This document shows, piece by piece, positions 3,625 to 37,920 of a DNA stretch of 37,920 nt. The notes beneath the pieces are model-generated. The model did no database searches. It was not told the origin of the DNA and saw only the letters and a list, made by a program, of their open reading frames with translations. The DNA is from a virus, in UHGV virus genome UHGV-0126763. One strand, given 5' to 3'. The position numbers were made by a program, and so were the translations under genes. Position 1 is the first letter of the stretch; every line of letters starts with the position of its first letter.

Positions 3625-3648
3625 ATAAAAAGGCCCTCACATTGGAGG
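3625..3648 (-). terminator. Intrinsic terminator-like hairpin in early-left operon (tL-like)
   Basis: Minus strand reads GCCCTC-caatgt-GAGGGCC followed by TTTTTATATGC. Confidence 0.45.
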
Positions 3649-3778
3649 GCAAAGAAGATTTCCAATAATCAGAACAAGTCGGCTCCTGTTTAGTTACGAG
3701 CGACATTGCTCCGTGTATTCACTCGTTGGAATGAATACACAGTGCAGTGTTTATTCTGTTGCTTATTCCAAAGCAAAT

Positions 3779-4021: not shown

Positions 4022-4031
4022 GTATCAGCTC

Positions 4032-4358: not shown

Positions 4359-4556
4359 CTGGATTCTCCTGTCAGTTAGCTTTGGTGATTGGATGGCCGG
4401 CGCTGAACCCCGGCTTACTGGTTAGAGCGCCCGCACTACCAGTGACGCTGTCTTGAGGCGCAGATTGGTTACTGCTTGCCATGAGCGCTGTTTATACATT
4501 GGTCGAGCATCAGCCTGCTCATTCATCCAATCCCAAAGCCTTCTGCTTTGAATGCT

Positions 4557-4587
4557 GCCCTTCTTCAGGGCTTAATTTTTAAGAGCG
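4557..4587 (-). promoter_or_regulatory. nutL: nutL (boxA CGCTCTTA plus boxB GCCCTGAAGAAGGGC hairpin)
   Basis: Minus strand reads CGCTCTTAAAAATTAAGCCCTGAAGAAGGGC between the OL operators and N. Confidence 0.85.
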
Positions 4588-4631
4588 TCACCTTCATGGT
4601 GGTTAGTGCGTCCTGCTGATGGCTTAAAATA

Positions 4632-4712
4632 TACCTACAGGTAAAACCGTTGTCTATACCTGCAGGTAAATAAAATTGGTGTGAGAGTTTACCTGTTTGA
4701 ATTTTCAGGTAA
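4632..4712. promoter_or_regulatory. OL operator cluster (PL region)
   Basis: TACCTACAGGTA at 4632-4643, perfect palindrome TACCTGCAGGTA at 4657-4668, split half-sites TACCTG-N10-CAGGTA at 4690-4711; same motif family as the OR sites. Confidence 0.6.
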
Positions 4713-4730
4713 TTAATTTTTTGGATTGAT

Positions 4731-4754
4731 ATAAAAAAGCCCGCTTTGCGGGCT
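4731..4754 (-). terminator. Intrinsic terminator after the repressor operon
   Basis: Minus strand AGCCCGC-aaa-GCGGGCT stem-loop followed by TTTTTTAT, directly after the stop of the 4766..5062 gene. Confidence 0.7.
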
Positions 4755-4765
4755 GAAAGGAGATG

Positions 4766-5062
4766 TCAGAAGCTATTTGGATTGCTTGGCCATTGCGGCA
4801 ATTTTGATTCTACCGGGGTGTGTTTGGGTTTGAGTCCGTTTAAGTAGTCAAGACGCTCAATGGCGCATTTATACATAGCAATCTGATCTGATGACATGTC
4901 GTCATATGACATGCCTTTGAACTTCTTAATTATCGTTTCTGCCTCATGTATAAGATTCTTCTTCCTCATGAGTTCAGCTGTATGCTTAGAGCTTACAGGA
5001 GATAACTTTGCCCATATGAAGCAGATGATTACAACAGCGACTACTATGCCGGGTATAAACAT
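4766..5062 (-). CDS. Small membrane protein co-transcribed with repressor (rex-position moron)
   Basis: ORF-track frame 4766..5080 begins with TTG overlapping the cI stop; in-frame ATG at 5062 with GAGGA upstream gives MFIPGIVVAVVIICFIWAKL, a single N-terminal TM helix plus about 75-aa soluble domain. Confidence 0.6.
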   Translation of the reverse strand: MFIPGIVVAVVIICFIWAKLSPVSSKHTAELMRKKNLIHEAETIIKKFKGMSYDDMSSDQIAMYKCAIERLDYLNGLKPKHTPVESKLPQWPSNPNSF

Positions 5063-5076
5063 TTGCTGCTTTATCC

Positions 5077-5763
5077 TCAAACTTTTGGCAGATCGTCCTG
5101 GTCTACGTACCTGGTGTGTTTCACAATAGCTGAAACAAAATGCATTTTATCAACTTCTTCAACAGGAAGAGTGATTGGGCGGTGATCACTGTTTATGCTA
5201 CTAAACTGATAATCACCGTCTCTTGTTTTGTTCATGATCTTTATCATGTTGTGACCGTCTTTGGTCCTTACAAAGACTTCATCACCTGGATGTACTGGCG
5301 TATTTGGTTCAATAACAACATATTCTCCTGACTGAATCCTTGGCCACATGCTGTCACCCTTAACCTTCAGACCGTAAGCATCTTTATCGCCGCTGTAGAT
5401 GCTTAACCAACCGGATCTGAATTCAATCATATCCACTGAGCCATCAACTCCCAAAACGGCTTCACCAATTACCGGAACAAAACCCGCACGAACGTTACCC
5501 GCAAACTCAAGATGGTCCGTAGCTCCAGCTTTACCATCTGCAAGCATGTCCATCCATCCGCGTGGGAGATTAAAAGATTTTTCAATTAGTTCCATCATAT
5601 CGTCAGCAATGCGTTTTTTTCCGCTTTTTCCTTCCGGATACAGCATTCTGGAAACGTATGATGGTTCCCTTTCTATTCGACGAGCCAACTCTGAGGCCTT
5701 TCCATTACAGAATCGGTCTCTTATCTCTATCAGCCTTAGTCGTCTTTGTTCGTATTTATCCAT
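5077..5763 (-). CDS. cI: CI-like prophage repressor (HTH N-terminal domain, S24 LexA-like peptidase C-terminal domain)
   Basis: 228 aa; C-terminal GDSMWP serine motif and later Lys typical of S24 autoproteases; divergent from cro-like gene across the operator cluster; no SD before ATG, consistent with a leaderless PRM-type transcript. Confidence 0.85.
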   Translation of the reverse strand: MDKYEQRRLRLIEIRDRFCNGKASELARRIEREPSYVSRMLYPEGKSGKKRIADDMMELIEKSFNLPRGWMDMLADGKAGATDHLEFAGNVRAGFVPVIGEAVLGVDGSVDMIEFRSGWLSIYSGDKDAYGLKVKGDSMWPRIQSGEYVVIEPNTPVHPGDEVFVRTKDGHNMIKIMNKTRDGDYQFSSINSDHRPITLPVEEVDKMHFVSAIVKHTRYVDQDDLPKV

Positions 5764-5769
5764 GATTTA

Positions 5770-5797
5770 ATTCTATCTTTGATTACCTGCCGGTAAA
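5770..5797 (-). promoter_or_regulatory. Candidate PRM-like promoter for the repressor
   Basis: Minus strand TAGAAT -10 about 6 nt upstream of the cI ATG, weak TTTACC -35 overlapping the leftmost OR site; inferred by analogy to lambda PRM. Confidence 0.35.
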
Positions 5798-5835
5798 TAA
5801 CCTATGGGTATTGATTTGCTTTTTACCTACAGGTA
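5784..5835. promoter_or_regulatory. OR operator cluster (three sites)
   Basis: TACCTGCCGGTA 5784-5795, weaker AACCTATGGGTA 5799-5810, TACCTACAGGTA 5824-5835; tripartite arrangement between divergent cI and cro. Confidence 0.65.
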
Positions 5836-5839
5836 AACT
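5811..5839 (+). promoter_or_regulatory. Candidate PR promoter
   Basis: TTGATT -35 at 5811-5816, 17-nt spacer, TAAACT -10 at 5834-5839 overlapping the rightmost operator; 32 nt upstream of cro start. Confidence 0.45.
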
Positions 5840-5871
5840 CATCTTATTCAACAACGGGAAGGAGATAGCAA

Positions 5872-6102
5872 ATGGAAGAACTCCGCTTGTATCTGAACTC
5901 CCTTTCACTGGAAGAGCAGAGAGAATTTGCCACCAAGTGCGGAACTTCTATCGGCTATTTGAGGAAAGCACTTAGCCGTAATCATGAATTGGGCGCAGCA
6001 CTTTGTGTTCTGATTGAGAAGTTCAGCAATGGTGAAGTGACTCGCAAAGACCTTCATCCGGTTGATTGGGAAAGCATCTGGCCTGAATTAATGGCCGCTT
6101 AA
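5872..6102 (+). CDS. cro: Cro-like HTH regulator
   Basis: 76 aa, first gene rightward of OR, GGAG RBS 7 nt upstream. Confidence 0.65.
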   Translation: MEELRLYLNSLSLEEQREFATKCGTSIGYLRKALSRNHELGAALCVLIEKFSNGEVTRKDLHPVDWESIWPELMAA

Positions 6103-6110
6103 GTTATTAA

Positions 6111-6142
6111 CGCTCTTACACATCCCAGCCCTGAAAAAGGGC
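6111..6142 (+). promoter_or_regulatory. nutR: nutR (boxA CGCTCTTA plus boxB GCCCTGAAAAAGGGC)
   Basis: CGCTCTTA at 6111-6118 and hairpin GCCCTGAAAAAGGGC at 6128-6142, between cro and cII. Confidence 0.8.
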
Positions 6143-6218
6143 ATTACCAGAAACAAATCTCTATGGTTTTGCGTTTCTTTGCGAAGCCAACTCTATCTAA
6201 TCATTAAGGAAATTATCT

Positions 6219-6500
6219 ATGGGTACTATTGCAACTAAAAGCAAGAAAGCGGCTCGCATCGAGTCAGCCTTGCTGAACAAACTGGCACTGATGGGGCAGA
6301 AGACATTCGCTCGAGCAATGGGGGTTCCTGAATATCAGGTAAGCCGATGGAAGAATGGTTTCTTCTCGCAGGTAAGCATGATGCTGGCTGTTCTGGAATA
6401 CGGAATCGAAGACGATGAAATGGCTGAGCTGACTAAGCGGCTTGCCAATTACCTGACAAAAGAAAAAGCCCCGAAGAACGGCGAATTCTTCGAGGCCTGA
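6219..6500 (+). CDS. cII: CII-like transcriptional activator
   Basis: 93 aa; ARIESALLNK...SRWK...MLAVLE segment resembles lambda CII as recalled; AGGA RBS. Confidence 0.8.
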   Translation: MGTIATKSKKAARIESALLNKLALMGQKTFARAMGVPEYQVSRWKNGFFSQVSMMLAVLEYGIEDDEMAELTKRLANYLTKEKAPKNGEFFEA

Positions 6501-6534
6501 TGTAGAAAGACTGGATCAATCCACAGGAGTCATT

Positions 6535-6696
6535 ATGACAAAACGTCGTAAGAAATACCAGGAAAAAGAAGAGATTCGACACCCTGATTCACCTGAGGGA
6601 TTAGTGGTAGCCGCAGCAAATAACAGGGCGTTCGCAGAGCGCCTTGTTGGTGTTTACAGACTAGCCAAAGCAGGAGTGAAACATGGGCGTCGTTAA
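6535..6696 (+). CDS. Small basic hypothetical protein (53 aa), not in ORF track
   Basis: ATG at 6535 preceded by AGGAGT; hand translation [53 protein letters not shown]; stop overlaps the O-like gene start. Confidence 0.35.
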   Translation: MTKRRKKYQEKEEIRHPDSPEGLVVAAANNRAFAERLVGVYRLAKAGVKHGRR

Positions 6697-7504
6697 GTTA
6701 GCTGATTACAGGCCTCAACTGGAGGTCGTGGAGCATCGCGTGGCAGATACCGAAGATGGTTTCATGCGCGTTGCTAACGAGATTACCGACAGTCTGCTGA
6801 TGGCTGATTTAACCGTCCGGCAGTTGAAGGTGATGCTCGCTATCATGCGCAAGACATACGGATTCAATAAGCCGATGGATCGACTCACAAACACGCAGAT
6901 AGCAGCCATGACAGGTATTCATCACACTCATGTTTGCGCTGCCAAGCGCCAGCTTATTGAGCGTAAATTCCTCATTGCTGATGGCGTGAAAATCGGAGTG
7001 AACAAGGTGGTTTCGCAGTGGATTAGCCAGGACAGCTTAACATTAGCTAAAACAGCTAATAAAACATTAGCCAAGTCAGCTAATGGGTATAAGCCAAGTC
7101 AGCTAAACACAAAAGACAATATACAAAAGACAATAAATACAAATACCCCCTTACCCCCTAACGGGGGCGGCGATGGGCAGGTTAAACCTGAACGTCGCAA
7201 GGCAGAACGAATCGACTACGAATCCTTCCTGAACGCCTACAACACCGAAGTCGGTGACAGACTTCCACATGCTGTTGCGGTCAACGAGAAACGCAAACGT
7301 CGCCTGAAGAAAATCATTCCGCAACTGAAAACGCCAAACGTGGACGGTTTCAGAGCGTATGTCAGGGCGTTTGTGCATCAGGCCAAGCCGTTTTACTTCG
7401 GAGACAACGACACGGGCTGGACGGCAGATTTTGATTACCTGCTGAGGGAAGACTCGTTAACGGGAGTTCGGGAAGGGAAGTTTGCAGACAGGGGGATTGC
7501 ATGA
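6683..7504 (+). CDS. Replication initiator, O-like (P22 gene 18-like)
   Basis: 273 aa, AGGAG RBS, origin-like iterons embedded mid-gene, followed by helicase gene with ATGA overlap. Confidence 0.8.
7040..7140. repeat. Candidate replication origin: iterons plus AT-rich tract inside the O-like gene
   Basis: GCCAAGTCAGCTAA occurs twice (7070-7083, 7092-7105) with related TTAGCTAAAA/CAGCTAAT units, then A-rich tract with AAAAGACAATA twice. Confidence 0.5.
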
Positions 7505-8877
7505 GACAGGATATCGAAGCGAGCGTTATCGGTGGCCTGCTGATTGGTGGATTAACACCAACCGCCAGCGACGTTCTGGCAACGCTTGAGCCGGAAGCGT
7601 TTTCAATTCCGCTCTACCGGAAAGCCTTCGAGGTTATCCGCAAGCAGGCGCGAAACAGAAACCTAATCGACGCGCTGATGGTTGCCGAGGAGTGCGGAGA
7701 GGAGCATTTCACGTCAATCCTGATGACCAGCAAAAACTGCCCGAGTGCCGCAAACCTGAAGGGATATGCCGGAATGGTCGCGGATAACTATCACCGCCGT
7801 CTGGTGCTGGAAATCATGGATGAAATGCGTGAACCAATTCAGAGCGGAACCATCGACGCATCGAGTCAGGCGATGGATGAACTTGTAAAACGTCTCTCAG
7901 CTATCAGAAAGCCCCGTGACGAGGTTAAACCTGTACGGTTAGGGGAAATCATCACTGACTACACTGACACGCTTGACAGGCGTCTGAGGAACGGAGAAGA
8001 GTCAGATACCCTGAAGACCGGAATCGAAGAACTTGACGCCATCACCGGAGGGATGAACGCAGAAGACCTGGTGATTATCGCCGCTCGTCCTGGTATGGGG
8101 AAAACCGAGCTGGCGCTGAAGATTGCCGAAGGCGTTGCAAGCCGCGCTATTCCTGGTTCTGACGTCCGGCGCGGAGTGTTGATTTTCTCGATGGAAATGA
8201 GCGCATTGCAGATTGCAGAGCGAAGCATTGCCAACGCCGGGAGGATGTCGGTTAGCGTGCTGCGAAATCCTGCATCGATGGATGACGAAGGCTGGGCGCG
8301 TGTTGCTAACGGCATGAGTCAGCTTGCAGATTTGGATGTATGGGTAGTCGATGCCTCGCGGTTATCGGTCGAAGAAATACGCTCAATCGCAGAACGGCAC
8401 AAACAGGAAAATCCAAACCTGTCACTCATCATGGCGGATTATCTTGGCCTGATTGAGAAGCCGAAAGCAGACCGCAACGACCTCGCAATTGCTCACATCT
8501 CCGGAAGCCTGAAGGCGATGGCGAAAGACCTGAAAACGCCTGTTATCTCCCTGAGTCAGCTTTCGCGCGATGTTGAGAAGCGACCAAACAAACGCCCGAC
8601 AAACGCAGATTTGCGTGATTCAGGAAGCATTGAACAGGACGCAGACTCAATCATCATGCTCTATCGGGAAGCGGTATATGATGAGAACAGTAGCGCCGCG
8701 CCATTTGCTGAAATCATCGTGACGAAAAACCGTTTTGGCTCGCTTGGTACAGTTTACCAGCGGTTCTGTAACGGACACTTTGTTGCATGTGACCAGGATG
8801 AAGCCAGACAGATTTGCACAACATCAAATGCACCTGCTGCGCGTGGCAGACGATATGCACAAGGGGCTGACGTATGA
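7501..8877 (+). CDS. Replicative DNA helicase, DnaB family (P22 gene 12-like)
   Basis: 458 aa; Walker A GMGKTE; DnaB-like N-terminal [14 protein letters not shown]. Confidence 0.9.
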
Positions 8878-28864: not shown

Positions 28865-29929
28865 ATGTCTCTTAACTGGATGCGCCATTTTGAGCTGCAA
28901 CTGTTGGACCAGAACGGGCAGGGCGTTTCCCTGTCTGACTTTAAGGTCACGTTCCAGATCGAGTGGGCAGACACACGCTGGCCACGCGTGGCGAACGTGA
29001 AAATTTACAACCTTTCGACCGATACCACGAACAAGATACTTGGGCAGGAGTTTGCCAAAATTCGCATCATTGCCGGGTATGACGGTATAGTGCCGGATGT
29101 TGATGCGAGCCAGGTTGGTGTGTCCCGGGAGATTTCACCAGACCAGATAGGGCAGGTGAACGGTCAGAACTACGGCCTGATTTTTGACGGTGATATTCGC
29201 TTCACCGTCACCGGGAAGGACAACATTACGGATTCCTGGGTGTTGATTCAGGCCATTGGTGATCACGAAGCGTTCCTCTATGCGACCACCATCACCACGC
29301 TTGCCGCTGGCTATACCGTTGCGGATCTGCACCGGGCGACGATGCAGGATTTCAACGCGTTCGGCGTGACACAGGGCATTACCGGCGATTTTCCTGATAC
29401 CGTGTTTCCTCGTGGCCGCGCGATTTACTCATCCAGCCGCAACGTGATGGATAATATTGCTGCGCAGTGCAAAGCGACATGGCAACTGGTGGATGGTCAG
29501 GTCCAGATGGTGCCGGAGGATAAATATATTCACGAAGCCATTGTGTTGAATGCCAATACTGGCCTGATCGGTATGCCGCAACAGACAATGGGCGGCGGCG
29601 TAAACGTGCGGTGCCTGATAAACCCAAACATCCGCATTAATGGTCTTATCCAGCTCGATCAGGCTTCGGTGTACCGCGCCGCGCTCGGCAATAGCGAAAT
29701 CGCACAGTCGCCCGGTCGTATCACTGAAACGGAAGAGAACGGCAACCGCGCACTGACCGGCACAACGTCACAGGCTGCCAGCATTGCGACAGATGGCGTT
29801 TATATCGTCAAAGCTATCGACTATACTGGCGACACCAGAGGTCAGGCGTGGTACATGGATTTGATGTGTTTTGCGCGTGGCAGTCGTGATTTAGTTAATG
29901 CTGGTGCTATGCAAAAAACAAACTACTGA
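28865..29929 (+). CDS. Putative baseplate hub / late-control D-like tail protein
   Basis: 354 aa, GGAG RBS, position between tape measure and spike gene. Confidence 0.5.
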   Translation: MSLNWMRHFELQLLDQNGQGVSLSDFKVTFQIEWADTRWPRVANVKIYNLSTDTTNKILGQEFAKIRIIAGYDGIVPDVDASQVGVSREISPDQIGQVNGQNYGLIFDGDIRFTVTGKDNITDSWVLIQAIGDHEAFLYATTITTLAAGYTVADLHRATMQDFNAFGVTQGITGDFPDTVFPRGRAIYSSSRNVMDNIAAQCKATWQLVDGQVQMVPEDKYIHEAIVLNANTGLIGMPQQTMGGGVNVRCLINPNIRINGLIQLDQASVYRAALGNSEIAQSPGRITETEENGNRALTGTTSQAASIATDGVYIVKAIDYTGDTRGQAWYMDLMCFARGSRDLVNAGAMQKTNY

Positions 29930-29939
29930 GGTACGGGAC

Positions 29940-30275
29940 GTGAAACTCGTAATTTTTATCATTGCAGCATTATTTTCTTTCCAAGCTATTGCTGATTCTC
30001 AGTGTGGTGATTTCAAAATCCATTGGGCTGATGATGGTTTCGCTCGCGTAAACGGAGCTAAACCTGAATCGCAAAAAGTGACATTTCTTAAAAATGACGG
30101 TGATTATAACAACGTCAAAATTGAATGGCGCTTAGCGACCAATCAACCAGGGCGATGGGTAGGAATGGAGTTTATTGGCCGTAATGGTAAAGCAATCCTG
30201 AATGCTCAGTGGCTGCAAGCCAGCATGGATTCGCCGCGTCAGTATGCAACATACGACTGCCGAAAAGTAAAATAG
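29940..30275 (+). CDS. Secreted small protein (Sec signal peptide), moron in tail module
   Basis: GTG at 29940 with GAGG 8 nt upstream gives MKLVIFIIAALFSFQAIA followed by DSQCGDF (AXA cleavage site); two Cys in mature part; AT-rich; ORF-track ATG at 29898 lacks the signal peptide context. Confidence 0.55.
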   Translation: MKLVIFIIAALFSFQAIADSQCGDFKIHWADDGFARVNGAKPESQKVTFLKNDGDYNNVKIEWRLATNQPGRWVGMEFIGRNGKAILNAQWLQASMDSPRQYATYDCRKVK

Positions 30276-30293
30276 CCCGCCAGATAGGCGGGC
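30275..30293. terminator. Hairpin between convergent moron genes
   Basis: GCCCGCC-agata-GGCGGGC; on the minus strand it is followed by T-rich CTATTTTACTTTT. Confidence 0.45.
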
Positions 30294-30298
30294 ATGCG

Positions 30299-30589
30299 TC
30301 AAAAATATTGAGCTTTAATTATAATAAACACAATAATTACGAACAGGATGTTTCTAATTATTTTTTGCTTATGAGTAAGTTGTTTTTTTTCTGTCGATTT
30401 CCCGGGAGAGTAAAGGTTAGTGGTATGCGACAGCCCCGTGCCGGGAAGGCCATTTGTCATCTTTACGCCTTTTTTTCCGATGTTAATGGTGGAACCTTTA
30501 CCACCAATTGAAGTGCTTACTCCGCTTTTACTAATGTTGATCGCGAGTCCGGGCGCAATCCGGATTCTTTTACGAAATCTAAATCCCAT
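30299..30589 (-). CDS. DUF4236-like protein with C-terminal membrane anchor, opposite-strand moron
   Basis: 96 aa; AGGAG RBS 6 nt upstream of ATG; N-terminal MGFRFRKRIRIAPG...SKSGVSTSIGGKG...GLPGTGLS resembles DUF4236 from memory; C-terminal hydrophobic ILFVIIVFIIIKAQYF. Confidence 0.65.
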   Translation of the reverse strand: MGFRFRKRIRIAPGLAINISKSGVSTSIGGKGSTINIGKKGVKMTNGLPGTGLSHTTNLYSPGKSTEKKQLTHKQKIIRNILFVIIVFIIIKAQYF

Positions 30590-30776: not shown

Positions 30777-30800
30777 AAACCAGCTTCGGCTGGTTTTTTT
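30777..30800 (+). terminator. Intrinsic terminator preceding baseplate genes
   Basis: AAACCAGC-ttcg-GCTGGTTT followed by TTTTT, 12 nt before the baseplate spike ATG. Confidence 0.55.
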
Positions 30801-30811
30801 ATGGGGGTTTT

Positions 30812-31552
30812 ATGCCAATTCCAACTCAATCACAGATCGGCGGTGAGCAGCAGACCGCGCAGGCCATTGTCGATTCGGTGTCTACCCAGATGCGCGTAGC
30901 GATGCCCGGCATCATTCAGTCGTTCGATCCTGACACTGTTACCTGCACAGTAGAGGTAGCGCTTCGCGGTATTGTTGGCGATGGCTCCACCGAATTAAAA
31001 CCGCTGGTGGATGTGCCGGTTATCTTCCCGCGCGGCGGCGGTTGCACGCTGACCTTTCCGGTAAAAGAAGGCGACGAGTGCCTGCTGATCTTTGCCGACC
31101 GTTGCATCGATTTCTGGTGGCAGAGCGGCGGCGTTCAGGAGACCGTCGACCCGCGCCAGCATGACTTATCTGATGCGTTCGCCATCGTTGGCCCGCAGTC
31201 GCAAGCGCAGAAAATCAGCGGTATCAGTACCAGCGCCGCGCAGCTGCGAACCGATGATGGCTCGGCGTTCGTAGAGGTCGCAGCAGGGCATAACATCACC
31301 GTTAAAACGCCGGGCAAGCTTACGGCTACGGCTGAGGGTGGAACGACAATCACATCCCCGACTATCACGCTGAACGGCAACGTAACGATTAATGGCAATC
31401 TGTCTCAGGGAATGGGAGAAAGTGGTGGTACTGCGACGATGCTTGGGCCGGTTACGGTAACGAATGATGTGACAGCTTCAGGTATAAGTGTCGCCACGCA
31501 TAAACATGGCGGAGTTCAGGCAGGCGGGGGAACTACTGGAGGGCCGCAATAA
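30812..31552 (+). CDS. Baseplate spike / assembly protein V-like
   Basis: 246 aa; N-terminal OB-fold-like region then Gly/Thr-rich beta-helix-like C-terminus typical of gpV/Mu gp45-type spikes. Confidence 0.65.
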   Translation: MPIPTQSQIGGEQQTAQAIVDSVSTQMRVAMPGIIQSFDPDTVTCTVEVALRGIVGDGSTELKPLVDVPVIFPRGGGCTLTFPVKEGDECLLIFADRCIDFWWQSGGVQETVDPRQHDLSDAFAIVGPQSQAQKISGISTSAAQLRTDDGSAFVEVAAGHNITVKTPGKLTATAEGGTTITSPTITLNGNVTINGNLSQGMGESGGTATMLGPVTVTNDVTASGISVATHKHGGVQAGGGTTGGPQ

Positions 31553-31905
31553 TGCGATACCGTCGCGAAGATGCTGACGGCGATTACACTTTCGGGCAGG
31601 GTGACGACACCTTCCTTATCGACAGTCCGGAATGTGTCGCCCAGGCCGTGAAAACCCGTTTCGAACTGTGGCGCGGTCAGTGGTTTCTCGATCTGACGGA
31701 AGGCACGCCGTATGTTCAGTCAGTGCTTGGGAAACAGCGATCAGACGTCTACATCCTGGCTATACGCGAACGCATACAGGACACGCCGGGCGTTCTGTCG
31801 ATTCTTTCCTTCGATACCAATTATGACGGCACCAGCCGCCGCGTCACTTTCACTTCCTCCATTGACACAATCTACGGCCAGACGACTGTAACAAGCGAGG
31901 CATAA
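31552..31905 (+). CDS. Baseplate protein (Mu gp46 / W-like)
   Basis: 117 aa, coupled to spike gene, upstream of J-like gene. Confidence 0.5.
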   Translation: MRYRREDADGDYTFGQGDDTFLIDSPECVAQAVKTRFELWRGQWFLDLTEGTPYVQSVLGKQRSDVYILAIRERIQDTPGVLSILSFDTNYDGTSRRVTFTSSIDTIYGQTTVTSEA

Positions 31906-33105
31906 ATGGCTTTGAACCTCGACACGCTGGGGCTATCGGCAACGGTAACCGCCCAGGGGATTAGTGCGCCTGATTACCAGACAATCCTCGATACACTGAC
32001 CAGCTATTTCAGGCAGATTTACGGTAGTGATGCCTACCTCGAACCAGACAGCAAAGATGGGCAAATGGTCGCGCTGGTGGCTCTGGCTGTGCATGATGCT
32101 AACAATACCGCTATCGAGATCTACAACTCGTTTTCACCGACGACAGCGCAGGCCGCAGCGCTTAGCAGCAATGTGAAAATTAACGGGATCACGCGAAAAG
32201 TAGCGACAAACTCTACTGCTGACCTTCTGTTAACCGGTACGGCGGGCACGACTATCACGAATGGCTCCGCACGGGATAAAAACGGCATTATCTGGAATTT
32301 TCCCGCGAGTGTAGCAATCGGGGTTGATGGTACTGTGCTGGTGACGGCCACATGTGCGAATAGCGGTTCGGTTGCGGCGATGGCCGGGACTATCACCACC
32401 ATTAATACACCGACTCGCGGCTGGGTGTCGGTAACCAACCCGGCTGCGGCTACTGTCGGTTCACCAGCTGAAACCGACGCAGAGCTGCGCATCAGGCAGG
32501 GGCAAAGCGTCGCTCTGCCGTCACTCACACCGTTTGAAGGTGTCGACGGTGCGATCGCCAACGTTGCAGGCGTGACTCGTCACAAGCTCTACGAGAATGA
32601 TACTGGTGCTACCGACAGCAACGGGCTGCCTCCTCATTCCATTTCCGCCATCGTCGATGGTGGGGATGTTACCGAGATAGCTCAGACCATCAGGGGGAAT
32701 AAAGGGCAGGGAACGGCAACCTACGGGACAACTTCTGTCACGGTGCCGGATACTTACGGTAATCCTCACGTCATCAGTTTTTCACGCTCTACCGATGTGC
32801 CAATTTTCGTAGCCATTACCCTGAAAGTTTTTACCGGGTATACCTCTCAAATCGGCGAGCAGATCAAACAGGCTGTTGCCGACTATATTAACGGCCTGAC
32901 AATTGGCGACGACGTTCTGCTGAGCCGTATTTATTCCCCGGCAAACCTTGGTGTTGTGAGCGGCGGTAATGCCCGATATTACGACATTACCGAACTGCTG
33001 ATCGGTAAGTCGTCTGGCAGCGTATCGGCATCAAATATTGATATTGCCTATGATGCTTCGGCGTCCTGTAGCACCGCGAATATCACAATCACGGTGACCT
33101 CATGA
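31906..33105 (+). CDS. Baseplate J-like protein
   Basis: 399 aa, canonical position after W-like gene. Confidence 0.65.
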   Translation: MALNLDTLGLSATVTAQGISAPDYQTILDTLTSYFRQIYGSDAYLEPDSKDGQMVALVALAVHDANNTAIEIYNSFSPTTAQAAALSSNVKINGITRKVATNSTADLLLTGTAGTTITNGSARDKNGIIWNFPASVAIGVDGTVLVTATCANSGSVAAMAGTITTINTPTRGWVSVTNPAAATVGSPAETDAELRIRQGQSVALPSLTPFEGVDGAIANVAGVTRHKLYENDTGATDSNGLPPHSISAIVDGGDVTEIAQTIRGNKGQGTATYGTTSVTVPDTYGNPHVISFSRSTDVPIFVAITLKVFTGYTSQIGEQIKQAVADYINGLTIGDDVLLSRIYSPANLGVVSGGNARYYDITELLIGKSSGSVSASNIDIAYDASASCSTANITITVTS

Positions 33106-33782
33106 GCAAATACACCGAACTGATCACTAACTACCACGCTACCAAGCCACTCTTTTTTGACCATATAGACCTAAGCACTCGCCCGCTGATTGATGTGTCC
33201 AGGACTATGTCAGGGCTTGTAACAGCCTTCGATATCGATACGGCGGTCGGCGTGCAGCTCGACACGCTCGGGATCTGGATTGGGCGTAGTCGTATAGTCA
33301 GCCAGCCAATTAGCGGCGTTTATTTCAGCTGGGACACTGACGGCCTTGGATATGACCAGGGCGTCTGGCAGGGGCCGTATGACCCGGATTCGGGCTATAC
33401 GACGCTGAGCGATGACACCTACCGCATCATTCTGAAAGCGAAAATAGCGATCAACAACTGGGACGGCCGGAACGACTCGCTGCCGCCCATTCTTGACGAA
33501 GCGACGGCAGGCTCTGGCCTGAAGATGCAGATCGTCGACAATCAGGATATGACGATATCGGTTTGGGTATTTCCCGAGACTGACATTTCGGACGTGTCTC
33601 TCGAACTGATCGCCGCTATCAAGCAGGGCTATCTCACTGTTAAAGCTGCTGGCGTGTGGGCCGGTGATGTTGAAACGCCTTCGGTAGAAACACCGTCTGA
33701 AGGCACTAAGTTTTTTGGGTTTGATATGGATAACGAATACATCGGTGGGTTCGATGTGGGAGCATGGGGGACTTTACTCTAA
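33102..33782 (+). CDS. Tail protein (Mu gp48 / P2 I-like position)
   Basis: 226-aa ORF coupled between J-like and fiber genes. Confidence 0.5.
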   Translation: MSKYTELITNYHATKPLFFDHIDLSTRPLIDVSRTMSGLVTAFDIDTAVGVQLDTLGIWIGRSRIVSQPISGVYFSWDTDGLGYDQGVWQGPYDPDSGYTTLSDDTYRIILKAKIAINNWDGRNDSLPPILDEATAGSGLKMQIVDNQDMTISVWVFPETDISDVSLELIAAIKQGYLTVKAAGVWAGDVETPSVETPSEGTKFFGFDMDNEYIGGFDVGAWGTLL

Positions 33783-34720
33783 TGGCAACAAATAACTTTA
33801 AAGCGTTCGCGCTTGATCCTAACGCTAACGTCATGTCACAGGCTGACTGGGAAGCGCTACCGACACTACTATCAGGATTTACTTCAGGTAAGGCATCCAG
33901 TGCGCAGGTGAATAAAGCGCTTAGACAGTCGTTGTTTATTGCTTCTGCCTTGGCTGAATTTGTATCAACGACACTGAATACAGATATCCTTGATGATGGT
34001 GATATCAATGGGTTCATGAGTAAATTGACATCTGCATTACAGTTAAATTCTCCAGGGCGTCTCATTAATATTCAGACTATCACTACTTCAGGAACGTACA
34101 CAAAAACACCTGGTGCGAAGCATGCTTTAATTCGTGCAGTAGGAGGGGGGGCAGGTGGTGGCGGGGTTCCTGCCACTTCATCAACGACTCAGTCAACAGC
34201 AAAAGGTGGGGAATCTGGCGCTTATATTGAAGCGTATGTTGATCTAAGTTCTGTGACTTCTTTATCTGCAATTATTGGTGCTGGTGGAGCTGGAGCCATT
34301 GCTGGCAGCAATAGCGGGACATCTGGCGGAACGACTTCCTTAGGGAGTCTAATTTCATGTCCAGGTGGTGAGCCTGGAATTGGTGGGAATACCAGCGCAG
34401 CAAGTTTTGTATCATCTGACAGGGCATCAAATAAAGCGCCAATGTCAACAGGTAGGGTTTTGGTTTCAACGCCAACATCGTTACCAAACCTTGCCCGCGT
34501 AGCAAATCCATCAGCTCCTACTGTTGGTGGTACCGGTGGATCTAATCCTTTAGGGATTGGGGGGGCTGCTGGAGGCGCCTTACCAGGAACTCCAACAAAT
34601 CCCACCAATGCAACCGGGTATGGTAGCGGAGGTGGAGGAGGTGCATCTGTGGGCGGCAACGCTGCAATGGGAGGAGCCAACGGAGCACCTGGGGTTATTA
34701 TTATTATGGAGTATGCCTGA
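33782..34720 (+). CDS. Tail fiber protein with glycine-rich C-terminal region
   Basis: Start at MATNNFKAFA (TAATG overlap); N-terminal region resembles conserved side-tail-fiber N-domains; C-terminal half Gly/Ser/Thr-rich. Confidence 0.7.
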   Translation: MATNNFKAFALDPNANVMSQADWEALPTLLSGFTSGKASSAQVNKALRQSLFIASALAEFVSTTLNTDILDDGDINGFMSKLTSALQLNSPGRLINIQTITTSGTYTKTPGAKHALIRAVGGGAGGGGVPATSSTTQSTAKGGESGAYIEAYVDLSSVTSLSAIIGAGGAGAIAGSNSGTSGGTTSLGSLISCPGGEPGIGGNTSAASFVSSDRASNKAPMSTGRVLVSTPTSLPNLARVANPSAPTVGGTGGSNPLGIGGAAGGALPGTPTNPTNATGYGSGGGGGASVGGNAAMGGANGAPGVIIIMEYA

Positions 34721-35118
34721 TGAAATGTGCATTAATAAAAAGCAATCAAGTAATAAATATTATTGAAATAGATGAGGAAGGGATTAATGAATTCACAGGT
34801 GGTCAATTAATTTTAATTCCTGAGGGTGAGGTTGTAGATATTGGGTTTTCGGTTGATGGTGATGCTTTTATACCTCCGCCAATATCTGAGTTGACTGATG
34901 ATGAAATAAAGCAACTGAACGAGTCGAAAAGAAAAGAGAAGGTGGCTATTGCGGTTAATTACATATCGCAAAACTCATTGGATTCTAAACTAATGCTTGG
35001 AATGCTTTCTGATGAAGATAAACGCAAATATGCTCAAATTATTACTTACATAGATGATTTGAATTCAATGACATTGGGTTCCTTTTCAGATGTGACTTGG
35101 CCTAAGCAACCGTTTTAA
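34720..35118 (+). CDS. Putative tail fiber assembly chaperone
   Basis: 132 aa, ATGA overlap with fiber stop, GGAG RBS, AT-rich, C-terminal ...DVTWPKQPF. Confidence 0.5.
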   Translation: MKCALIKSNQVINIIEIDEEGINEFTGGQLILIPEGEVVDIGFSVDGDAFIPPPISELTDDEIKQLNESKRKEKVAIAVNYISQNSLDSKLMLGMLSDEDKRKYAQIITYIDDLNSMTLGSFSDVTWPKQPF

Positions 35119-35123
35119 CTAAT

Positions 35124-35149
35124 TGCGCACGGATAGAATTCCGTGCGCA
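35124..35149. terminator. Hairpin between convergent tfa and acyltransferase genes
   Basis: TGCGCACGG-atagaatt-CCGTGCGCA, 9-bp perfect stem; flanking U-tracts weak. Confidence 0.4.
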
Positions 35150-35156
35150 GTGGAAA

Positions 35157-36200
35157 TTACCCTGTAAATATGCTAAGGAATGTTTTTTGAAATGATTTGT
35201 TTTTATTTTTAGCGTTAATTAATGCTACTATACTAACTTGCAGTTTTACCATTATTGTAGCAAGTGTGTAAGTAAGTACATAACTTATTAAATAATGACT
35301 ACCTATTTTTTGACACATTATGATAAATGGGATGTGCCATAAATAAATCCAAATGGAGTTTTGGGATATGAATGAAACAACCTGCCATAATCTTAAAACC
35401 TTAAGTAAAAGAACAGCTTTGTTTGAGAGCAGATAGACTACGAATATCATAAAGGTTGCATAGGACATGTAATATATCCCAGGTGGGTACTTGTCTGACT
35501 GAGTTGGATTAAAGGCACCCAAGGTAATAATGTAATATGCAGTCATGGCAGAAAATAATAATCCACAGATAATGGTTGGGGGTAATAATTCTTTATGATC
35601 AGTGCTTGCAATTTTATAACCAATGATGAAAGCAAGTGTATAAGATATAGAGTTTGATATGTATGTCCCCAAAAGTATATAAATGCTCAACTTGTCAATT
35701 CCATTATACAATGGAATTAACTGGCTATTAATTAATAAAAATGACGCGGATATTGTTAATATCGCTTTTAAATTAAGTGTGTATAGTTTTGGAGGAATGA
35801 AAGTGGCTATCACTGATATTATGAAAAAGAGTCTAATAACCCACACATAACCAAGCCCACTGGATAATGCGAATGATGTTATTATAATTGACTTATTGTA
35901 AGTAAAGTCTTTTATATTAAAAATAAACGAAATGATTTCATTTATTAAGAAAAATGCCGCGAAGAAAATCCAAGTTGGTAAAACTAAACGGCGAAATCGA
36001 GAATTAATATATTTTATTCTGTTGCTATGGCGATGTTCGGTTACACAAAAGGACATCCCCATAACCATAAACATTAAAGGAACATCAAAGTTTCGCAGTT
36101 GAGCTAGCCATAAAGGAGGCTGGACATGGGCTAGAATGATTAGAGAAAGCCCGAGAAATCTTAAAAAATCTATTTTATCAATACGCATGACTTCGTCCAT
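35157..36200 (-). CDS. Acyltransferase family 3 integral membrane protein (putative O-antigen acetyltransferase)
   Basis: 347 aa, about 10 predicted TM segments, N-terminal IDFLRFLGLSLIILAHV motif typical of acyltransferase-3 (OafA/Oac-like); strongly AT-rich; sits between tail fiber genes and integrase. Confidence 0.8.
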   Translation of the reverse strand: MDEVMRIDKIDFLRFLGLSLIILAHVQPPLWLAQLRNFDVPLMFMVMGMSFCVTEHRHSNRIKYINSRFRRLVLPTWIFFAAFFLINEIISFIFNIKDFTYNKSIIITSFALSSGLGYVWVIRLFFIISVIATFIPPKLYTLNLKAILTISASFLLINSQLIPLYNGIDKLSIYILLGTYISNSISYTLAFIIGYKIASTDHKELLPPTIICGLLFSAMTAYYIITLGAFNPTQSDKYPPGIYYMSYATFMIFVVYLLSNKAVLLLKVLRLWQVVSFISQNSIWIYLWHIPFIIMCQKIGSHYLISYVLTYTLATIMVKLQVSIVALINAKNKNKSFQKTFLSIFTG

Positions 36201-36676
36201 TAGATTTTATAGATCAACGATTATACATTAGTATTGATCGGCTATGACACCATTGCTTATAGGTATGCTCTCTGTTGTATGAGTACAGCTCAGGAGCTTC
36301 GCCTTGGTTTGTTATAGCTTACGGTGCCGATTTACGATGTCGGAGTGCCGACACCGTATCGCAAATTCCCGGTAGGCAGTGGTTAGACACGATGCAGGCC
36401 GCCGGTGATTGTTGAGACTGGCAGCCTGCATAATTTACAGCCCAACCTGGCGAACTGTCGGGAACTCAGATACCAGCCACATATCGGCTTCTTCAAACAT
36501 ATCCTCGTTTCTGGTCAAGTGAGGAGTGAAAATTCATGTGCCATTTTTGTGTCACACAAGGTGAAGCATCTAACATTGTCTTGCATCATGTGCCATTAAG
36601 TTTCTTATAGTGAATGCGGCAATGTGTATGTAAAACAGCTAGTTAAATGTGATTCTACTAATTCGTAATGCGAAGG
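36201..36676. other. Candidate attP-containing intergenic region
   Basis: 476-bp non-coding gap between moron and int; 12-bp direct repeat TCATGTGCCATT at 36534-36545 and 36586-36597; core not identified. Confidence 0.3.
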
Positions 36677-37834
36677 TCATGTGACGTTACCGTCTATCCA
36701 GTCCGCCCACCATTGCATCATTTCTCTGCGCTTATCGAGATACTGAGCATGATTGTAAATTCCACGCACAGATCCGCCGTTGGCATGTGCCAGTTGCACT
36801 TCAATGGCGTCGGCAGGCCATTCGTGCTCGTTCATAATCGTGCTGAATTCATGCCTGAATCCGTGACCGCTTTCCAGACCTTCATAGCCGATTTGTTTGA
36901 TCACAAGCAATACCGCGTTCTCGCAGATTGGCTTCTTCTTATCGTTGCGCCCGGCAAAAACAAACTCTGAGACTGGTTTAGTGATGGAGCTTAGCGTAGT
37001 GAGAAGCTCAACCACCTGGTCTGACATAGGAACAACATGAATTTTGCGTCCCTTCATCACATTGGCGTCGATGGTGATAATCCTGTTTTCAAAATCGACG
37101 TTCTTCCATAGCATGGAACGAAGCTCTTTTGTTCTGAGGGCTGTGTAGCGTAAAACTTTGGTCGCAATGAGCGATACGATACTTCCTGAAAATGTTGCAA
37201 GTGCTTTGTTGAATTCCGGGATCTGGTCTGCAGGAAGAAACGGGAAGTTCTTCTTGCGGTATCCCTTCATGGCGTCAGCAAGGTCAGGTGACGGGTTATA
37301 TTTAGCCCTTCCGGTGACAATAGCGTAACGGAAAACCTCGCCGCATCTTCTGCGTGCTTTGTTGGCTCGCTCCATTGCGCCGCGATCTTCAAATCTGCGG
37401 ATTACTTCCAGCAGTTTCATCGGCTCAATATCCTGAATTTCAAGGCCGCCGATGATAGGTAAAATGTCGTCATCAAACATCTTTGCAAGTTCATTTGCAT
37501 AGCCTACTGACCAGACTTGCTTCTTGTGCTCGTACCATTCCTTGTAAATGGCGCTAAAGGAATTGTTGTTAGACGAAGCCTTTTTCGCCTTTACCGGATC
37601 GATGCCAACCGAGATGTCTTTCCTCGCAGTCCATGCTTTATCCCTTGCCTCCTGCAAAGTCATAAGCGGATATTTTCCTACGGTCAGTATTTTTTCCTTA
37701 CCGTCAATCTTGTAGCGAAGCTGCCATACCTTTTTCCCGGATACAGGGACATAAAGGTACAGGCCATTACCATCGAGAAGGCGATATGGTTTTTCTTTCG
37801 GCTTTGCTGCTTCAATCTGCTTAACGGTGAGCAT
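36677..37834 (-). CDS. int: Tyrosine integrase (P4-like family)
   Basis: N-terminus MLTVKQIEAAKPKEKPYRLLDGNGLYLYV typical of this family; C-terminal catalytic region with RHEFST and HANGGSVRGIY; ORF-track start 37870 is an upstream GTG. Confidence 0.85.
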   Translation of the reverse strand: MLTVKQIEAAKPKEKPYRLLDGNGLYLYVPVSGKKVWQLRYKIDGKEKILTVGKYPLMTLQEARDKAWTARKDISVGIDPVKAKKASSNNNSFSAIYKEWYEHKKQVWSVGYANELAKMFDDDILPIIGGLEIQDIEPMKLLEVIRRFEDRGAMERANKARRRCGEVFRYAIVTGRAKYNPSPDLADAMKGYRKKNFPFLPADQIPEFNKALATFSGSIVSLIATKVLRYTALRTKELRSMLWKNVDFENRIITIDANVMKGRKIHVVPMSDQVVELLTTLSSITKPVSEFVFAGRNDKKKPICENAVLLVIKQIGYEGLESGHGFRHEFSTIMNEHEWPADAIEVQLAHANGGSVRGIYNHAQYLDKRREMMQWWADWIDGNVT

Positions 37835-37920
37835 GGGTAAAAATCCGGTGGGTAAAATTATTTTATCCACTTTTTACCCGTCATGGAGTGCGGCTGTCAA
37901 CGATCTGACGCGAACCATGA

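What the first reader, a model, noticed from the sequence alone, without database searches (positions are those of the whole stretch)
33782..35118. Tail fiber with conserved N-terminus and glycine-rich C-terminal half, plus AT-rich assembly chaperone: likely swapped host-range cassette
The fiber N-terminal region looks like the conserved attachment domain of enterobacterial side tail fibers, whereas the C-terminal half is dominated by Gly/Ser/Thr repeats (GGAGGGG, GGGGGASVGG). The downstream chaperone-like gene is markedly AT-rich. This pattern is typical of horizontally exchanged receptor-binding modules.
Basis: partly seen in the sequence, partly recalled or inferred. Interest (0 to 1): 0.4.

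Follow-up and report, generated by a model that had tools for sequence, protein, structure and literature searches.

The report
Swappable glycine-rich phage tail fibre module
This is the host-recognition end of a temperate phage: a short tail fibre with a glycine-rich receptor-binding tip of the solved cyanophage Pam3 type, plus its folding helper, and comparison with relatives shows the tip and the helper's fibre-binding half were exchanged together, which is a clean but ordinary case of phage host-range shuffling.

Summary
Window 33782-34720 (+) encodes a 312-aa tail fibre and 34720-35118 (+) a 132-aa tail-fibre assembly chaperone. Their start and stop codons overlap.

- **Chaperone.** It has the Caudo_TAP / Mu TfaU / Pam3 gp25 layout, with an N-terminal beta domain and a C-terminal helical domain.
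- **Mosaicism.** Against an Enterobacter hormaechei prophage, mismatch density is about 40% up to 34085, about 4% across 34090-34900, then about 20%. The shared block is fibre aa 102-312 plus chaperone aa 1-60. Citrobacter phage Omnitron matches at 92% up to 33921 and then carries an unrelated tip.
- **Wider survey.** In 86 loci, the same N-terminus is joined to at least five tip classes, each with its own chaperone class.
- **Composition.** GC3 falls from about 0.6 in the late genes to 0.2-0.35 across the whole fibre, chaperone and downstream acyltransferase, not only the chaperone.

Verdict: a new member of a known kind, of low to moderate interest.

The parts
33782..34720 (+). Tail fibre gene (312 aa), Pam3 gp24 type
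33782..34084 (+). Fibre aa 1-101: helical N-terminal domain, inferred to dock on the baseplate. The first ~50 aa are conserved and aa 51-100 form a variable stalk
   Evidence: Predicted helices 20-34, 40-65 and 75-88, with pLDDT 31-82. Across homologues, aa 1-50 are 68-100% identical but aa 51-100 only 30-53%. The same ~86 aa are found on at least 5 unrelated C-termini in 86 loci. The docking role is inferred from Pam3 gp24 (PMC9608196).
34085..34717 (+). Fibre aa 102-312: TNF-like beta-sandwich plus glycine-rich lattice, inferred to be the receptor-binding domain
34720..35118 (+). Tail-fibre assembly chaperone (132 aa)
   Evidence: PF02413 Caudo_TAP over aa 56-131. Family profile hits Mu TfaU 5yvq at E=1e-10. 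AF2 pLDDT 87, with beta strands in aa 2-51 and helices in aa 60-116. Best Foldseek PDB hit is the Pam3 chaperone chain 7ypx_a, E=0.05, probability 0.95.
34720..34899 (+). Chaperone aa 1-60: small beta domain specific to glycine-rich fibres, inferred to bind the fibre
   Evidence: An HMM of this domain is found directly downstream of 18 of 19 glycine-rich fibres and 0 of 67 other fibres. Conserved motif YALIxxGxVINxxxWDG...IGWxY.
34900..35118 (+). Chaperone aa 61-132: helical Caudo_TAP C-domain shared across fibre classes, inferred to drive trimerisation
   Evidence: Found in 9 of 18 glycine-rich loci and 46 of 67 other loci. Aligns with Mu TfaU residues up to 174.
34090..34900 (+). Exchange block shared at ~96% DNA identity with an Enterobacter hormaechei prophage whose flanks are 60-80% identical
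   Evidence: Mismatch counts per 30 nt are 7-19 up to 34089, 0-3 from 34090 to 34899, and 1-12 (mostly 4-12) from 34900 to 35259. 100-nt identity profile.
35122..35150 (.). GC-rich hairpin between the convergent chaperone and acyltransferase genes, possibly a bidirectional terminator
   Evidence: RNAfold gives a 12-bp stem at -22.1 kcal/mol. No T-run follows, so the terminator scan did not list it.
35157..36200 (-). Membrane acyltransferase (347 aa), a likely lysogenic-conversion gene that travels with the cassette
   Evidence: PF01757 Acyl_transf_3 at E=8e-22. GC 0.32. 99.7-100% DNA identity together with the chaperone in E. coli loci. 94-100% identity to the E. hormaechei locus over 35301-36200.
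33102..33782 (+). DUF2612/Phage_Wedge1 baseplate wedge gene immediately upstream (context: the fibre's docking partner)
   Evidence: PF11041 at E=6.5e-45. Same gene order in all close relatives.

Best explanation
The region is the host-recognition module of a SEN34/Brunovirus-like temperate myophage with a Pam3-like minimal baseplate.

**Fibre.** The 312-aa fibre is a one-protein 'simplified' tail fibre of the Pam3 gp24 type.
- Its helical N-terminus (aa 1-101) trimerises and plugs into the DUF2612/J wedge (inferred).
- Its C-terminal TNF-like plus glycine-rich domain (aa 102-312) presents variable distal loops to a cell-surface receptor (inferred). The receptor is most likely LPS or O-antigen.

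**Chaperone.** The overlapping downstream gene encodes a two-domain chaperone.
- A ~55-aa beta domain grips the glycine-rich tip (inferred).
- A Caudo_TAP helical domain trimerises, so three fibre chains fold and register together (inferred). The chaperone probably leaves before or at virion maturation, as proposed for Pam3 gp25.

**Evolution.** The module is mosaic (shown).
- The receptor-binding domain and the chaperone's fibre-binding domain have been exchanged as one block. Its breakpoints sit in the conserved linkers, at about fibre aa 102 and about chaperone aa 60.
- The whole fibre, chaperone and acyltransferase stretch has foreign, AT-rich codon usage.
- The convergent acyltransferase is probably a lysogenic-conversion enzyme that modifies surface polysaccharide, and so could mask the receptor in lysogens (inferred).
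For: **Identity of the fibre.**
- Pfam PF21722 above threshold.
- Family profile hits Pam3 fibre at E=1.8e-8 across profile positions 79-305.
- Confident AF2 model.
- ALK/LTK TNF-like plus glycine-rich domains appear as more distant hits.

**Baseplate context.** Spike, W-like, J and DUF2612 genes lie upstream. Relatives carry Pam3_gp18, Sheath_initiator and Phage_Wedge1 annotations.

**Chaperone.**
- PF02413.
- Mu TfaU at E=1e-10.
- Two-domain model.
- The top PDB fold hit is the Pam3 chaperone chain.

**Receptor precedent.** In a Klebsiella phage, host-range mutations map to the glycine-rich domain of a gp24-like fibre, and LPS triggers DNA ejection (PMC12671077).

**Mosaicism.**

**Pairing of tip and chaperone classes.** 18 of 19 against 0 of 67 loci.

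**Chaperone C-domain shared across classes.**

**Composition.**
Against: - Structures are predictions of monomers. Trimerisation and the 3:3 complex were not modelled.
- The N-terminal 60 residues have low pLDDT (31-67).
- Fold similarity of the chaperone to Pam3 gp25 is weak (E=0.05, TM 0.40), and no sequence hit to gp25 was obtained.
- Within the glycine-rich class, pairwise identity of the tip and of the chaperone N-domain is not correlated (Spearman 0.07 over 55 pairs). Co-transfer is therefore shown only by one close pair and by the class-level association, whose loci are not phylogenetically independent.
- The receptor is unknown.
- The acyltransferase has no NCBIfam or phage tblastn match, so its substrate is inferred only from its family and position.
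Confidence: 0.85

Rival explanations
1. There was no module swap. The fibre tip and chaperone descended vertically with the phage, and the uneven similarity to relatives reflects diversifying selection on some segments and purifying selection on others.
For: Receptor-binding proteins are known to evolve fast. Sibling E. coli prophages carry the entire fibre, chaperone and acyltransferase at ~100% identity, so no breakpoint lies inside the fibre relative to them.
Against: - Relative to the E. hormaechei prophage, the fast-evolving tip is the most conserved part (96%), while the normally conserved N-terminus is ~60% identical, with a step within ~30 nt.
- Omnitron and dozens of loci join the same N-terminus to unrelated folds.
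- GC3 drops from ~0.6 to ~0.25-0.35, which selection on protein sequence does not explain.
Confidence: 0.04
2. The protein is not the primary receptor-binding fibre. It would be an accessory tail-tip decoration (like the Bxb1 gp33 'tail wing brush') that aids reversible surface adhesion, with host specificity set elsewhere.
Against: - In the window it is the only fibre-like gene after the wedge genes, and no other candidate receptor-binding gene lies between it and the acyltransferase and integrase.
- In Pam3 the homologue is the sole tail fibre (PMC9608196).
- In a Klebsiella phage, mutations in the homologue's glycine-rich domain change host use (PMC12671077).
Confidence: 0.07
3. The low G+C of the chaperone and acyltransferase is a functional or local compositional feature (for example weak mRNA structure, or H-NS silencing of a lysogenic-conversion gene) rather than a sign of foreign origin.
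For: Membrane acyltransferases and O-antigen genes are AT-rich in many enterobacteria. Other AT-rich patches exist in the window, for example 1001-5600 and 30001-30400.
Against: - The shift is at third codon positions, spans three genes of unrelated function, and coincides with similarity breakpoints to other genomes.
- The same block occurs at 99.7% identity in an unrelated degraded E. coli locus.
- The two ideas are not exclusive.
Confidence: 0.04

Closest known systems
Cyanophage Pam3 tail fibre gp24 with chaperone gp25 (PDB 7YPX, 7YFW; PMC9608196)
   Same: - One-protein fibre of ~280-310 aa, with an N-terminal helical domain followed by a TNF-like plus glycine-rich domain ending in a hydrophobic strand (VIIIMEYA here, IIIVQYF in Pam3).
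- The chaperone gene lies directly downstream, with an N-terminal beta domain and C-terminal helices.
- Same minimal baseplate gene set.
   Different: - Only ~22-26% identity.
- The host is an enterobacterium and the phage is temperate.
- The chaperone is shorter (132 against 162 aa) and matches Mu TfaU by sequence rather than gp25.
- The helical N-terminal domain is not detectably homologous, since the profile match starts at position 79.
- An acyltransferase is linked downstream.
Phage Mu tail-fibre assembly protein TfaU (PDB 5YVQ) / Pfam PF02413 Caudo_TAP
   Same: Homologous C-terminal helical domain and linker (E=1e-10; Pfam hit). Modular logic of a variable N-domain that binds the fibre and a conserved C-domain.
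   Different: The N-domain here is a distinct ~55-aa class found only with glycine-rich fibres. The client fibre of Mu has a different tip fold.
Klebsiella phage gp24-like fibres (TFP_Y of SCNJ1-Y; MMNM_27) (PMC12671077)
   Same: Enterobacterial phage fibres modelled on Pam3 gp24. The glycine-rich domain determines host use, and LPS is the trigger or receptor.
   Different: Different phages. Sequence relationship to this fibre was not measured here, and the receptor of the window's fibre is unknown.
ALK/LTK receptor 'TG' supradomain (TNF-like + glycine-rich; e.g. 7LRZ, 7NX3, 7LIR)
   Different: These are animal cytokine receptors with no functional relation. The similarity is structural only.
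Tail-fibre or tailspike plus O-antigen-modification gene plus integrase arrangement of serotype-converting phages (Sf6, P22, SEN34)
   Same: A receptor-binding gene is followed by an Acyl_transf_3 gene next to att and int. SEN34 has fibre, Tfa, O-acetyltransferase and integrase in the same order. The integrase is 96% identical at DNA level to Sf6 int.
   Different: The acyltransferase has no detectable match in any of 50,697 phage records, and its substrate is untested. SEN34's fibre is 381 aa, its region beyond aa 95 is only 12% glycine against 23-24% here, and the glycine-rich-domain HMM does not match it.

Membership tests
Pam3 gp24-type simplified tail fibre (Pfam PF21722 Gly_rich_2) | Sequence match to the glycine-rich domain model above the curated threshold | tested here: met
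   33.6 bits against a cut-off of 24.3, over aa 101-308. Family profile against Pam3 fibre, E=1.8e-8.
Pam3 gp24-type simplified tail fibre (Pfam PF21722 Gly_rich_2) | TNF-like beta-sandwich carrying a lattice of extended glycine-rich motifs | tested here: met
Pam3 gp24-type simplified tail fibre (Pfam PF21722 Gly_rich_2) | N-terminal alpha-helical domain that trimerises and docks to the baseplate | tested here: inconclusive
   Three helices are predicted (20-34, 40-65, 75-88), but with pLDDT 31-82. There is no sequence match to the gp24 N-terminus.
Pam3 gp24-type simplified tail fibre (Pfam PF21722 Gly_rich_2) | Encoded after the J-like and Wedge1 genes of a minimal myophage baseplate and followed by its chaperone | tested here: met
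   Gene order is spike, W, J, DUF2612, fibre, Tfa. Pam3_gp18 and Phage_Wedge1 domains occur in close relatives.
Pam3 gp24-type simplified tail fibre (Pfam PF21722 Gly_rich_2) | Homotrimer that binds a host surface receptor through distal loops | not testable with these tools
   Needs multimer modelling or biochemistry.
Caudo_TAP tail-fibre assembly chaperones (PF02413; Mu TfaU, Pam3 gp25) | Sequence match to the family model | tested here: met
   42.2 bits against a cut-off of 22.1. Profile against 5yvq, E=1e-10.
Caudo_TAP tail-fibre assembly chaperones (PF02413; Mu TfaU, Pam3 gp25) | Two-domain build: a variable N-terminal beta domain and a conserved C-terminal helical domain | tested here: met
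   AF2 model has strands in aa 2-51 and helices in aa 60-116, pLDDT 87. The N-domain is class-specific and the C-domain is shared.
Caudo_TAP tail-fibre assembly chaperones (PF02413; Mu TfaU, Pam3 gp25) | Fold similarity to the solved Pam3 gp25 | tested here: inconclusive
   It is the top Foldseek hit, but at E=0.05, probability 0.95 and TM 0.40/0.35.
Caudo_TAP tail-fibre assembly chaperones (PF02413; Mu TfaU, Pam3 gp25) | Forms a complex with the fibre tip and is required for its folding | not testable with these tools
   Inferred from position, translational coupling and PMC9608196.
   tblastn of aa 1-98 against 50,697 phage records gave 31 hits, and none of the 31 records is phage lambda, P2, Mu or a T-even phage. 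Annotated neighbours (DUF2612, baseplate wedge) and the SEN34 gene order place several of them in the SEN34-like baseplate lineage. Three hits merely carry the annotation 'side tail fiber protein'.
S16 gp38-type polyglycine adhesin | Separate adhesin protein that caps the tip of a long fibre | tested here: not met
Phage-borne O-antigen acyltransferases (Acyl_transf_3, lysogenic conversion) | Acyl_transf_3 membrane protein between the receptor-binding gene and att/int | tested here: met
   PF01757 at E=8e-22 over aa 8-316. Position shown. SEN34 has the same layout.
Phage-borne O-antigen acyltransferases (Acyl_transf_3, lysogenic conversion) | Acylates O-antigen and changes serotype or phage adsorption | not testable with these tools
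   No NCBIfam or phage match that would name a substrate.

The most novel reading that the evidence does not exclude
The unit of host-range exchange in this phage lineage may be a three-part 'recognise, fold, then mask' block: the glycine-rich receptor-binding domain, the ~55-aa chaperone domain dedicated to it, and a linked surface-polysaccharide acyltransferase that modifies the very receptor the tip binds. In addition, the glycine-rich tip may need only the small beta domain to fold. Half of the glycine-rich loci examined encode it with no detectable Caudo_TAP trimerisation domain, in five of them as a stand-alone 62-71-aa protein, which would define a minimal fibre chaperone.
Probability: 0.3. 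Interest if true: 0.45.

Novelty: new member of a known kind. Interest (0 to 1): 0.25.

Why it matters
Short, single-protein fibres with a compact glycine-rich tip and a tiny dedicated chaperone are attractive parts for retargeting phages and tailocins. This locus gives a natural example with nucleotide-level swap boundaries: about fibre aa 102 and about chaperone aa 60. Those boundaries indicate where to cut when engineering such swaps in enterobacterial phages.

The locus also shows that the Pam3-type fibre, solved in a cyanophage, is common in prophages of Escherichia, Klebsiella, Enterobacter and Pantoea, with more than 1,000 homologues found. Beyond that, it is a textbook case of tail-fibre mosaicism and does not challenge current understanding.

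Tried and rejected
- **Single-sequence search of the fibre against PDB sequences:** nothing relevant. The family profile was needed.
- **tblastn of the glycine-rich domain against phage records:** no match. This is probably because BLAST's low-complexity filter masks the domain, so it is not taken as absence.
- **E. coli complete genomes:** only the chaperone (plus the last ~50 nt of the fibre gene, window 34670-35118) at 99.8% in one strain, and a 137-nt N-terminal match in another. The exact cassette is rare in that collection.
- **NCBIfam:** no hits for fibre, chaperone, acyltransferase or wedge protein.
- **tblastn of the acyltransferase against phages:** no match.
- **Single-sequence search with the chaperone:** only 5 clusters found. 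An alignment-based search was needed.
- **Single-sequence search of the chaperone against PDB sequences:** nothing.
- **Quantitative co-variation of tip and chaperone N-domain within the glycine-rich class:** no signal (rho 0.07). All pairs but one are saturated at 30-50% identity, so only the class-level association is claimed.
- **Promoter and terminator consensus scan:** not above shuffled expectation.
- **Tandem repeat search:** none found, so 'repeats' is rejected as a description at the DNA level.
- **Crude motif scan for acyltransferases downstream of other fibres:** only 6 loci matched. The acyltransferase is therefore an occasional passenger, not a constant part of the module.
- **Literature search on Brunovirus/SEN34/DUF2612:** nothing about this fibre.
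Full report
**1. What is at the coordinates.**
The stated interval holds two co-directional genes. The first is 33782-34720 (312 aa) and the second is 34720-35118 (132 aa). Each start codon overlaps the previous stop codon, in the sequences TAATG and TGATG, which suggests translational coupling.

Upstream lie a gpV-like spike (30812-31552), a W-like sheath-initiator or wedge protein (31552-31905), a Baseplate_J protein (31906-33105) and a DUF2612/Phage_Wedge1 protein (33102-33782). Downstream, on the opposite strand, lie an Acyl_transf_3 membrane protein (35157-36200) and a tyrosine integrase (36677-37870).

The rest of the window carries a terminase, head genes, a sheath-like DUF3383 protein, a tape measure and a Dit-like protein. 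At the left end it carries RecT, Gp157 and Ead/Ea22 early genes. The window is therefore essentially a complete temperate myophage genome. It is related to Salmonella phage SEN34 (genus Brunovirus) and Citrobacter phage Omnitron.

**2. Checking the observation.**
- The fibre matches Pfam PF21722 (Gly_rich_2) over aa 101-308 and several tail-fibre PHROGs. The second gene matches PF02413 (Caudo_TAP).
- Both quoted glycine runs are present.
- Residues 102-312 are 24% Gly and 47% Gly+Ser+Thr, against 5% and 25% for residues 1-101.
- There is no DNA-level tandem repeat.
- The chaperone is AT-rich (GC 0.34), as is the acyltransferase (0.32), against a window mean of 0.50.

One refinement matters. 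At third codon positions the fibre is just as AT-rich as the chaperone:

| Segment | GC3 |
|---|---|
| Eight late genes | 0.58-0.67 |
| 3' end of the wedge gene | 0.48 |
| Fibre aa 1-47 | 0.43 |
| Fibre aa 48-101 | 0.33 |
| Glycine-rich domain | 0.25-0.32 |
| Chaperone, first half | 0.20 |
| Chaperone, second half | 0.35 |
| Acyltransferase | 0.31 |

. The ordinary total GC of the glycine-rich half comes from Gly and Ala codons.

**3. What the fibre is.**
A database search found 1168 homologues. Almost all are 300-375 aa with PF21722, and they come from Escherichia, Klebsiella, Enterobacter, Pantoea and relatives.

A profile of 52 diverse members hits the solved fibre of cyanophage Pam3 (7YFW, 7YPX) at E=1.8e-8 across profile positions 79-305. 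An AlphaFold2 model built on that alignment has mean pLDDT 85, above 90 for most of aa 100-312 and low for aa 1-60. Its structural matches are:
- Foldseek: Pam3 fibre, E=1.9e-9.

The Pam3 paper (PMC9608196) describes gp24 as follows. It has an N-terminal helical domain for baseplate docking. [quoted passage not shown] The glycine-rich motifs form a hydrogen-bonded lattice and the distal tips are variable. The window's fibre fits that description in sequence, predicted fold, size and gene context.

**4. What the chaperone is.**
Alone it finds only five close clusters. An alignment of chaperones found downstream of glycine-rich fibres finds 1884 proteins of about 130-140 aa. The same alignment hits Mu TfaU (5YVQ) at E=1e-10.

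The AF2 model (pLDDT 87) has a beta domain in aa 2-51, a Pro-rich linker and helices in aa 60-116. Its best PDB fold match is the Pam3 chaperone chain 7ypx_a. That match is weak (E=0.05, probability 0.95, TM 0.40), but the next hits have E>1.

[quoted passage not shown] I infer the same division of labour here.

**5. Evidence for exchange.**

(a) *Protein level*.

| Homologue | aa 1-50 | aa 51-100 | aa 101-312 |
|---|---|---|---|
| P0002 (Enterobacter hormaechei) | 74% | 42% | 96% |
| P0038 | 98% | 40% | no BLAST match |
| P0067 | 96% | 30% | short local match only (55% over 38 aa) |

(b) *DNA level.*
- Against the E. hormaechei prophage (L004), mismatches per 30 nt are 7-19 up to 34089. They are 0-3 from 34090 to 34899. 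They are 1-12 (mostly 4-12) from 34900 to about 35259, and then low again through the acyltransferase. The shared block is thus fibre aa ~102-312 plus chaperone aa 1-60. Its ends fall in the conserved GRL...SGTYT junction and in the PPP linker.
- Against Omnitron, 91.7% identity runs from 30794 to 33921 (fibre aa ~47) and stops. Omnitron's fibre continues into an unrelated 213-aa protein. It is followed by Tfa-like genes on both strands, a fibre-tip-like ORF (ending NIAFNFIVRAA) on the opposite strand, and a Hin-like invertase, which suggests an invertible tip segment.
- Against E. coli siblings (L005, L007), identity is about 100% from ~33700 to 36506 but 64-92% over 32500-33600.
- A degraded E. 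coli locus keeps the chaperone and acyltransferase at 99.7% identity, with IS1 in place of the fibre.

(c) *Survey.* A scan of 185,579 species genomes returned 80 loci, taken together with the other loci fetched and the window itself. Most match only fibre aa 1-86. Their C-termini fall into at least five classes:
- glycine-rich, ending ...VIIxEYA;
- ...RNIAFNYIVRAA;
- ...W.A.GY;
- ...GYTF;
- ...TWRTIT.

Each class has its own type of downstream chaperone. An HMM of the chaperone N-domain is found after 18 of 19 glycine-rich fibres and after 0 of 67 others (Fisher p~1e-17, although the loci are not independent). The Caudo_TAP C-domain is found after 9 of those 18 and after 46 of the 67 others.

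So the chaperone is itself two modules. One is tied to the tip class and the other is generic.

*What I could not show.* Within the glycine-rich class, tip identity and chaperone N-domain identity are uncorrelated (rho 0.07). All pairs but one are too diverged to test this.

**6. Mechanism and its status.**

*Shown:*
- gene identities by family models;
- predicted folds;
- breakpoints;
- the compositional shift;
- the class-level pairing of tip and chaperone.

*Inferred from the solved Pam3 complex and from Mu Tfa work cited in it:*
- trimeric fibre;
- docking through the helical N-terminus;
- a 3:3 chaperone complex;
- release of the chaperone before or at virion maturation.

*Inferred from precedent:* LPS or O-antigen as receptor. 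In a Klebsiella phage, mutations in the glycine-rich domain of a gp24-like fibre restore infection of LPS mutants, and LPS triggers DNA ejection (PMC12671077).

*Inferred from family and position only:* the acyltransferase acts as a receptor-modifying lysogenic-conversion enzyme, as in the SEN34 layout.

**7. Comparison with what is known, and novelty.**
This is a member of the Pam3 gp24 / PF21722 fibre family with a Caudo_TAP chaperone. The N-terminus matches only 31 phage records, none of them lambda, P2, Mu or a T-even phage, and several show the DUF2612 baseplate context.

Tail-fibre tip and chaperone co-exchange, and AT-rich conversion genes next to att/int, are long-known patterns. Four things are mildly new here:
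- the nucleotide-level definition of the exchange block;
- the split of the chaperone into a tip-specific and a generic module;
- the frequent occurrence of the tip-specific module alone as a 62-71-aa ORF;
- the abundance of this cyanophage-type fibre in enterobacterial prophages.

I rate it a new member of a known kind, with interest 0.25.

Noticed in passing
L010 4901-5104, L029 4924-5136, L041 1582-1770, L058 4936-5151, L059 4906-5097: Nine of the 18 glycine-rich-fibre loci with the chaperone beta domain have no Caudo_TAP C-domain in any forward frame within 3.5 kb. In the five loci listed, the ORF after the fibre is only 62-71 aa and consists of the chaperone's N-terminal beta domain alone. 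These are possible minimal stand-alone chaperones.
   Followed up: partly
window 36200-37870: Similarity to the E. coli sibling prophages ends at 36506, inside what is a dinI gene in those loci, so only a ~70-nt remnant is present here. Next comes a ~170-nt non-coding stretch, 78-86% similar to the ends of Omnitron and of the E. hormaechei prophage, which is probably attP. It is followed by an integrase ~96% identical in DNA to Sf6/HK620 IntS. The integration module therefore seems to have been swapped in from P22-like podophages. No tRNA gene is in the window.
   Followed up: partly
window 1-3000 and 36677-37870: The integrase (minus strand) is at the right end, and Ead/Ea22, Gp157 and RecT early genes (minus strand) are at the left end. 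The window therefore looks like a circularly permuted, excised phage genome rather than an integrated prophage with host flanks.
   Followed up: no
window 29898-30589: An AT-rich islet (GC 0.39-0.43) lies between the baseplate hub and spike genes. It holds a 125-aa ORF (phrog_3443, with a signal-peptide-like N-terminus) and an opposite-strand DUF4236 gene. Its content differs among close relatives (L005 against L007), so it is a moron slot.
   Followed up: no
window 32500-33600: The 3' part of the Baseplate_J gene and most of the DUF2612/Wedge1 gene are only 64-92% identical to E. coli sibling prophages that are ~100% identical on both sides. This is a second mosaic patch, in the wedge proteins that presumably hold the fibre.
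   Followed up: no
L003 (Citrobacter phage Omnitron) 7965-10751: The Omnitron fibre shares the N-terminus but has an unrelated tip. It is followed by two Tfa-like genes in opposite orientation, a 161-aa opposite-strand ORF ending ...NIAFNFIVRAA (the ending of one of the fibre-tip classes seen in the survey), and a Hin/Gin-like serine invertase. This looks like a Mu/P1-style invertible host-range segment on the same baseplate adaptor.
   Followed up: no
L001 (E. coli FACU 2024) 5288-7838: A degraded locus keeps the chaperone and acyltransferase at 99.7% identity to the window, but IS1 replaces the fibre, next to two integrases and CP4-type island genes. The acyltransferase may have been retained for its own benefit to the host.
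   Followed up: no
L011 4001-4918 and downstream: This is the only glycine-rich fibre locus without the chaperone domain (Rosenbergiella). It is followed instead by a 626-aa ORF that may be a second receptor-binding protein.
   Followed up: no
L029 (contig labelled Chryseobacterium sp. 18061) and phage record EKP1 (Elizabethkingia): Fibres and baseplate genes close to enterobacterial ones appear in records labelled as Bacteroidota hosts. EKP1 is 73% identical in DNA over 2.8 kb. This could be contamination, mislabelling or an unusually broad distribution.
   Followed up: no
window 35122-35150: A perfect 12-bp GC-rich hairpin (-22.1 kcal/mol) lies between the convergent chaperone and acyltransferase genes, without a T-run. 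It is possibly a bidirectional terminator or an RNA stability element.
   Followed up: partly
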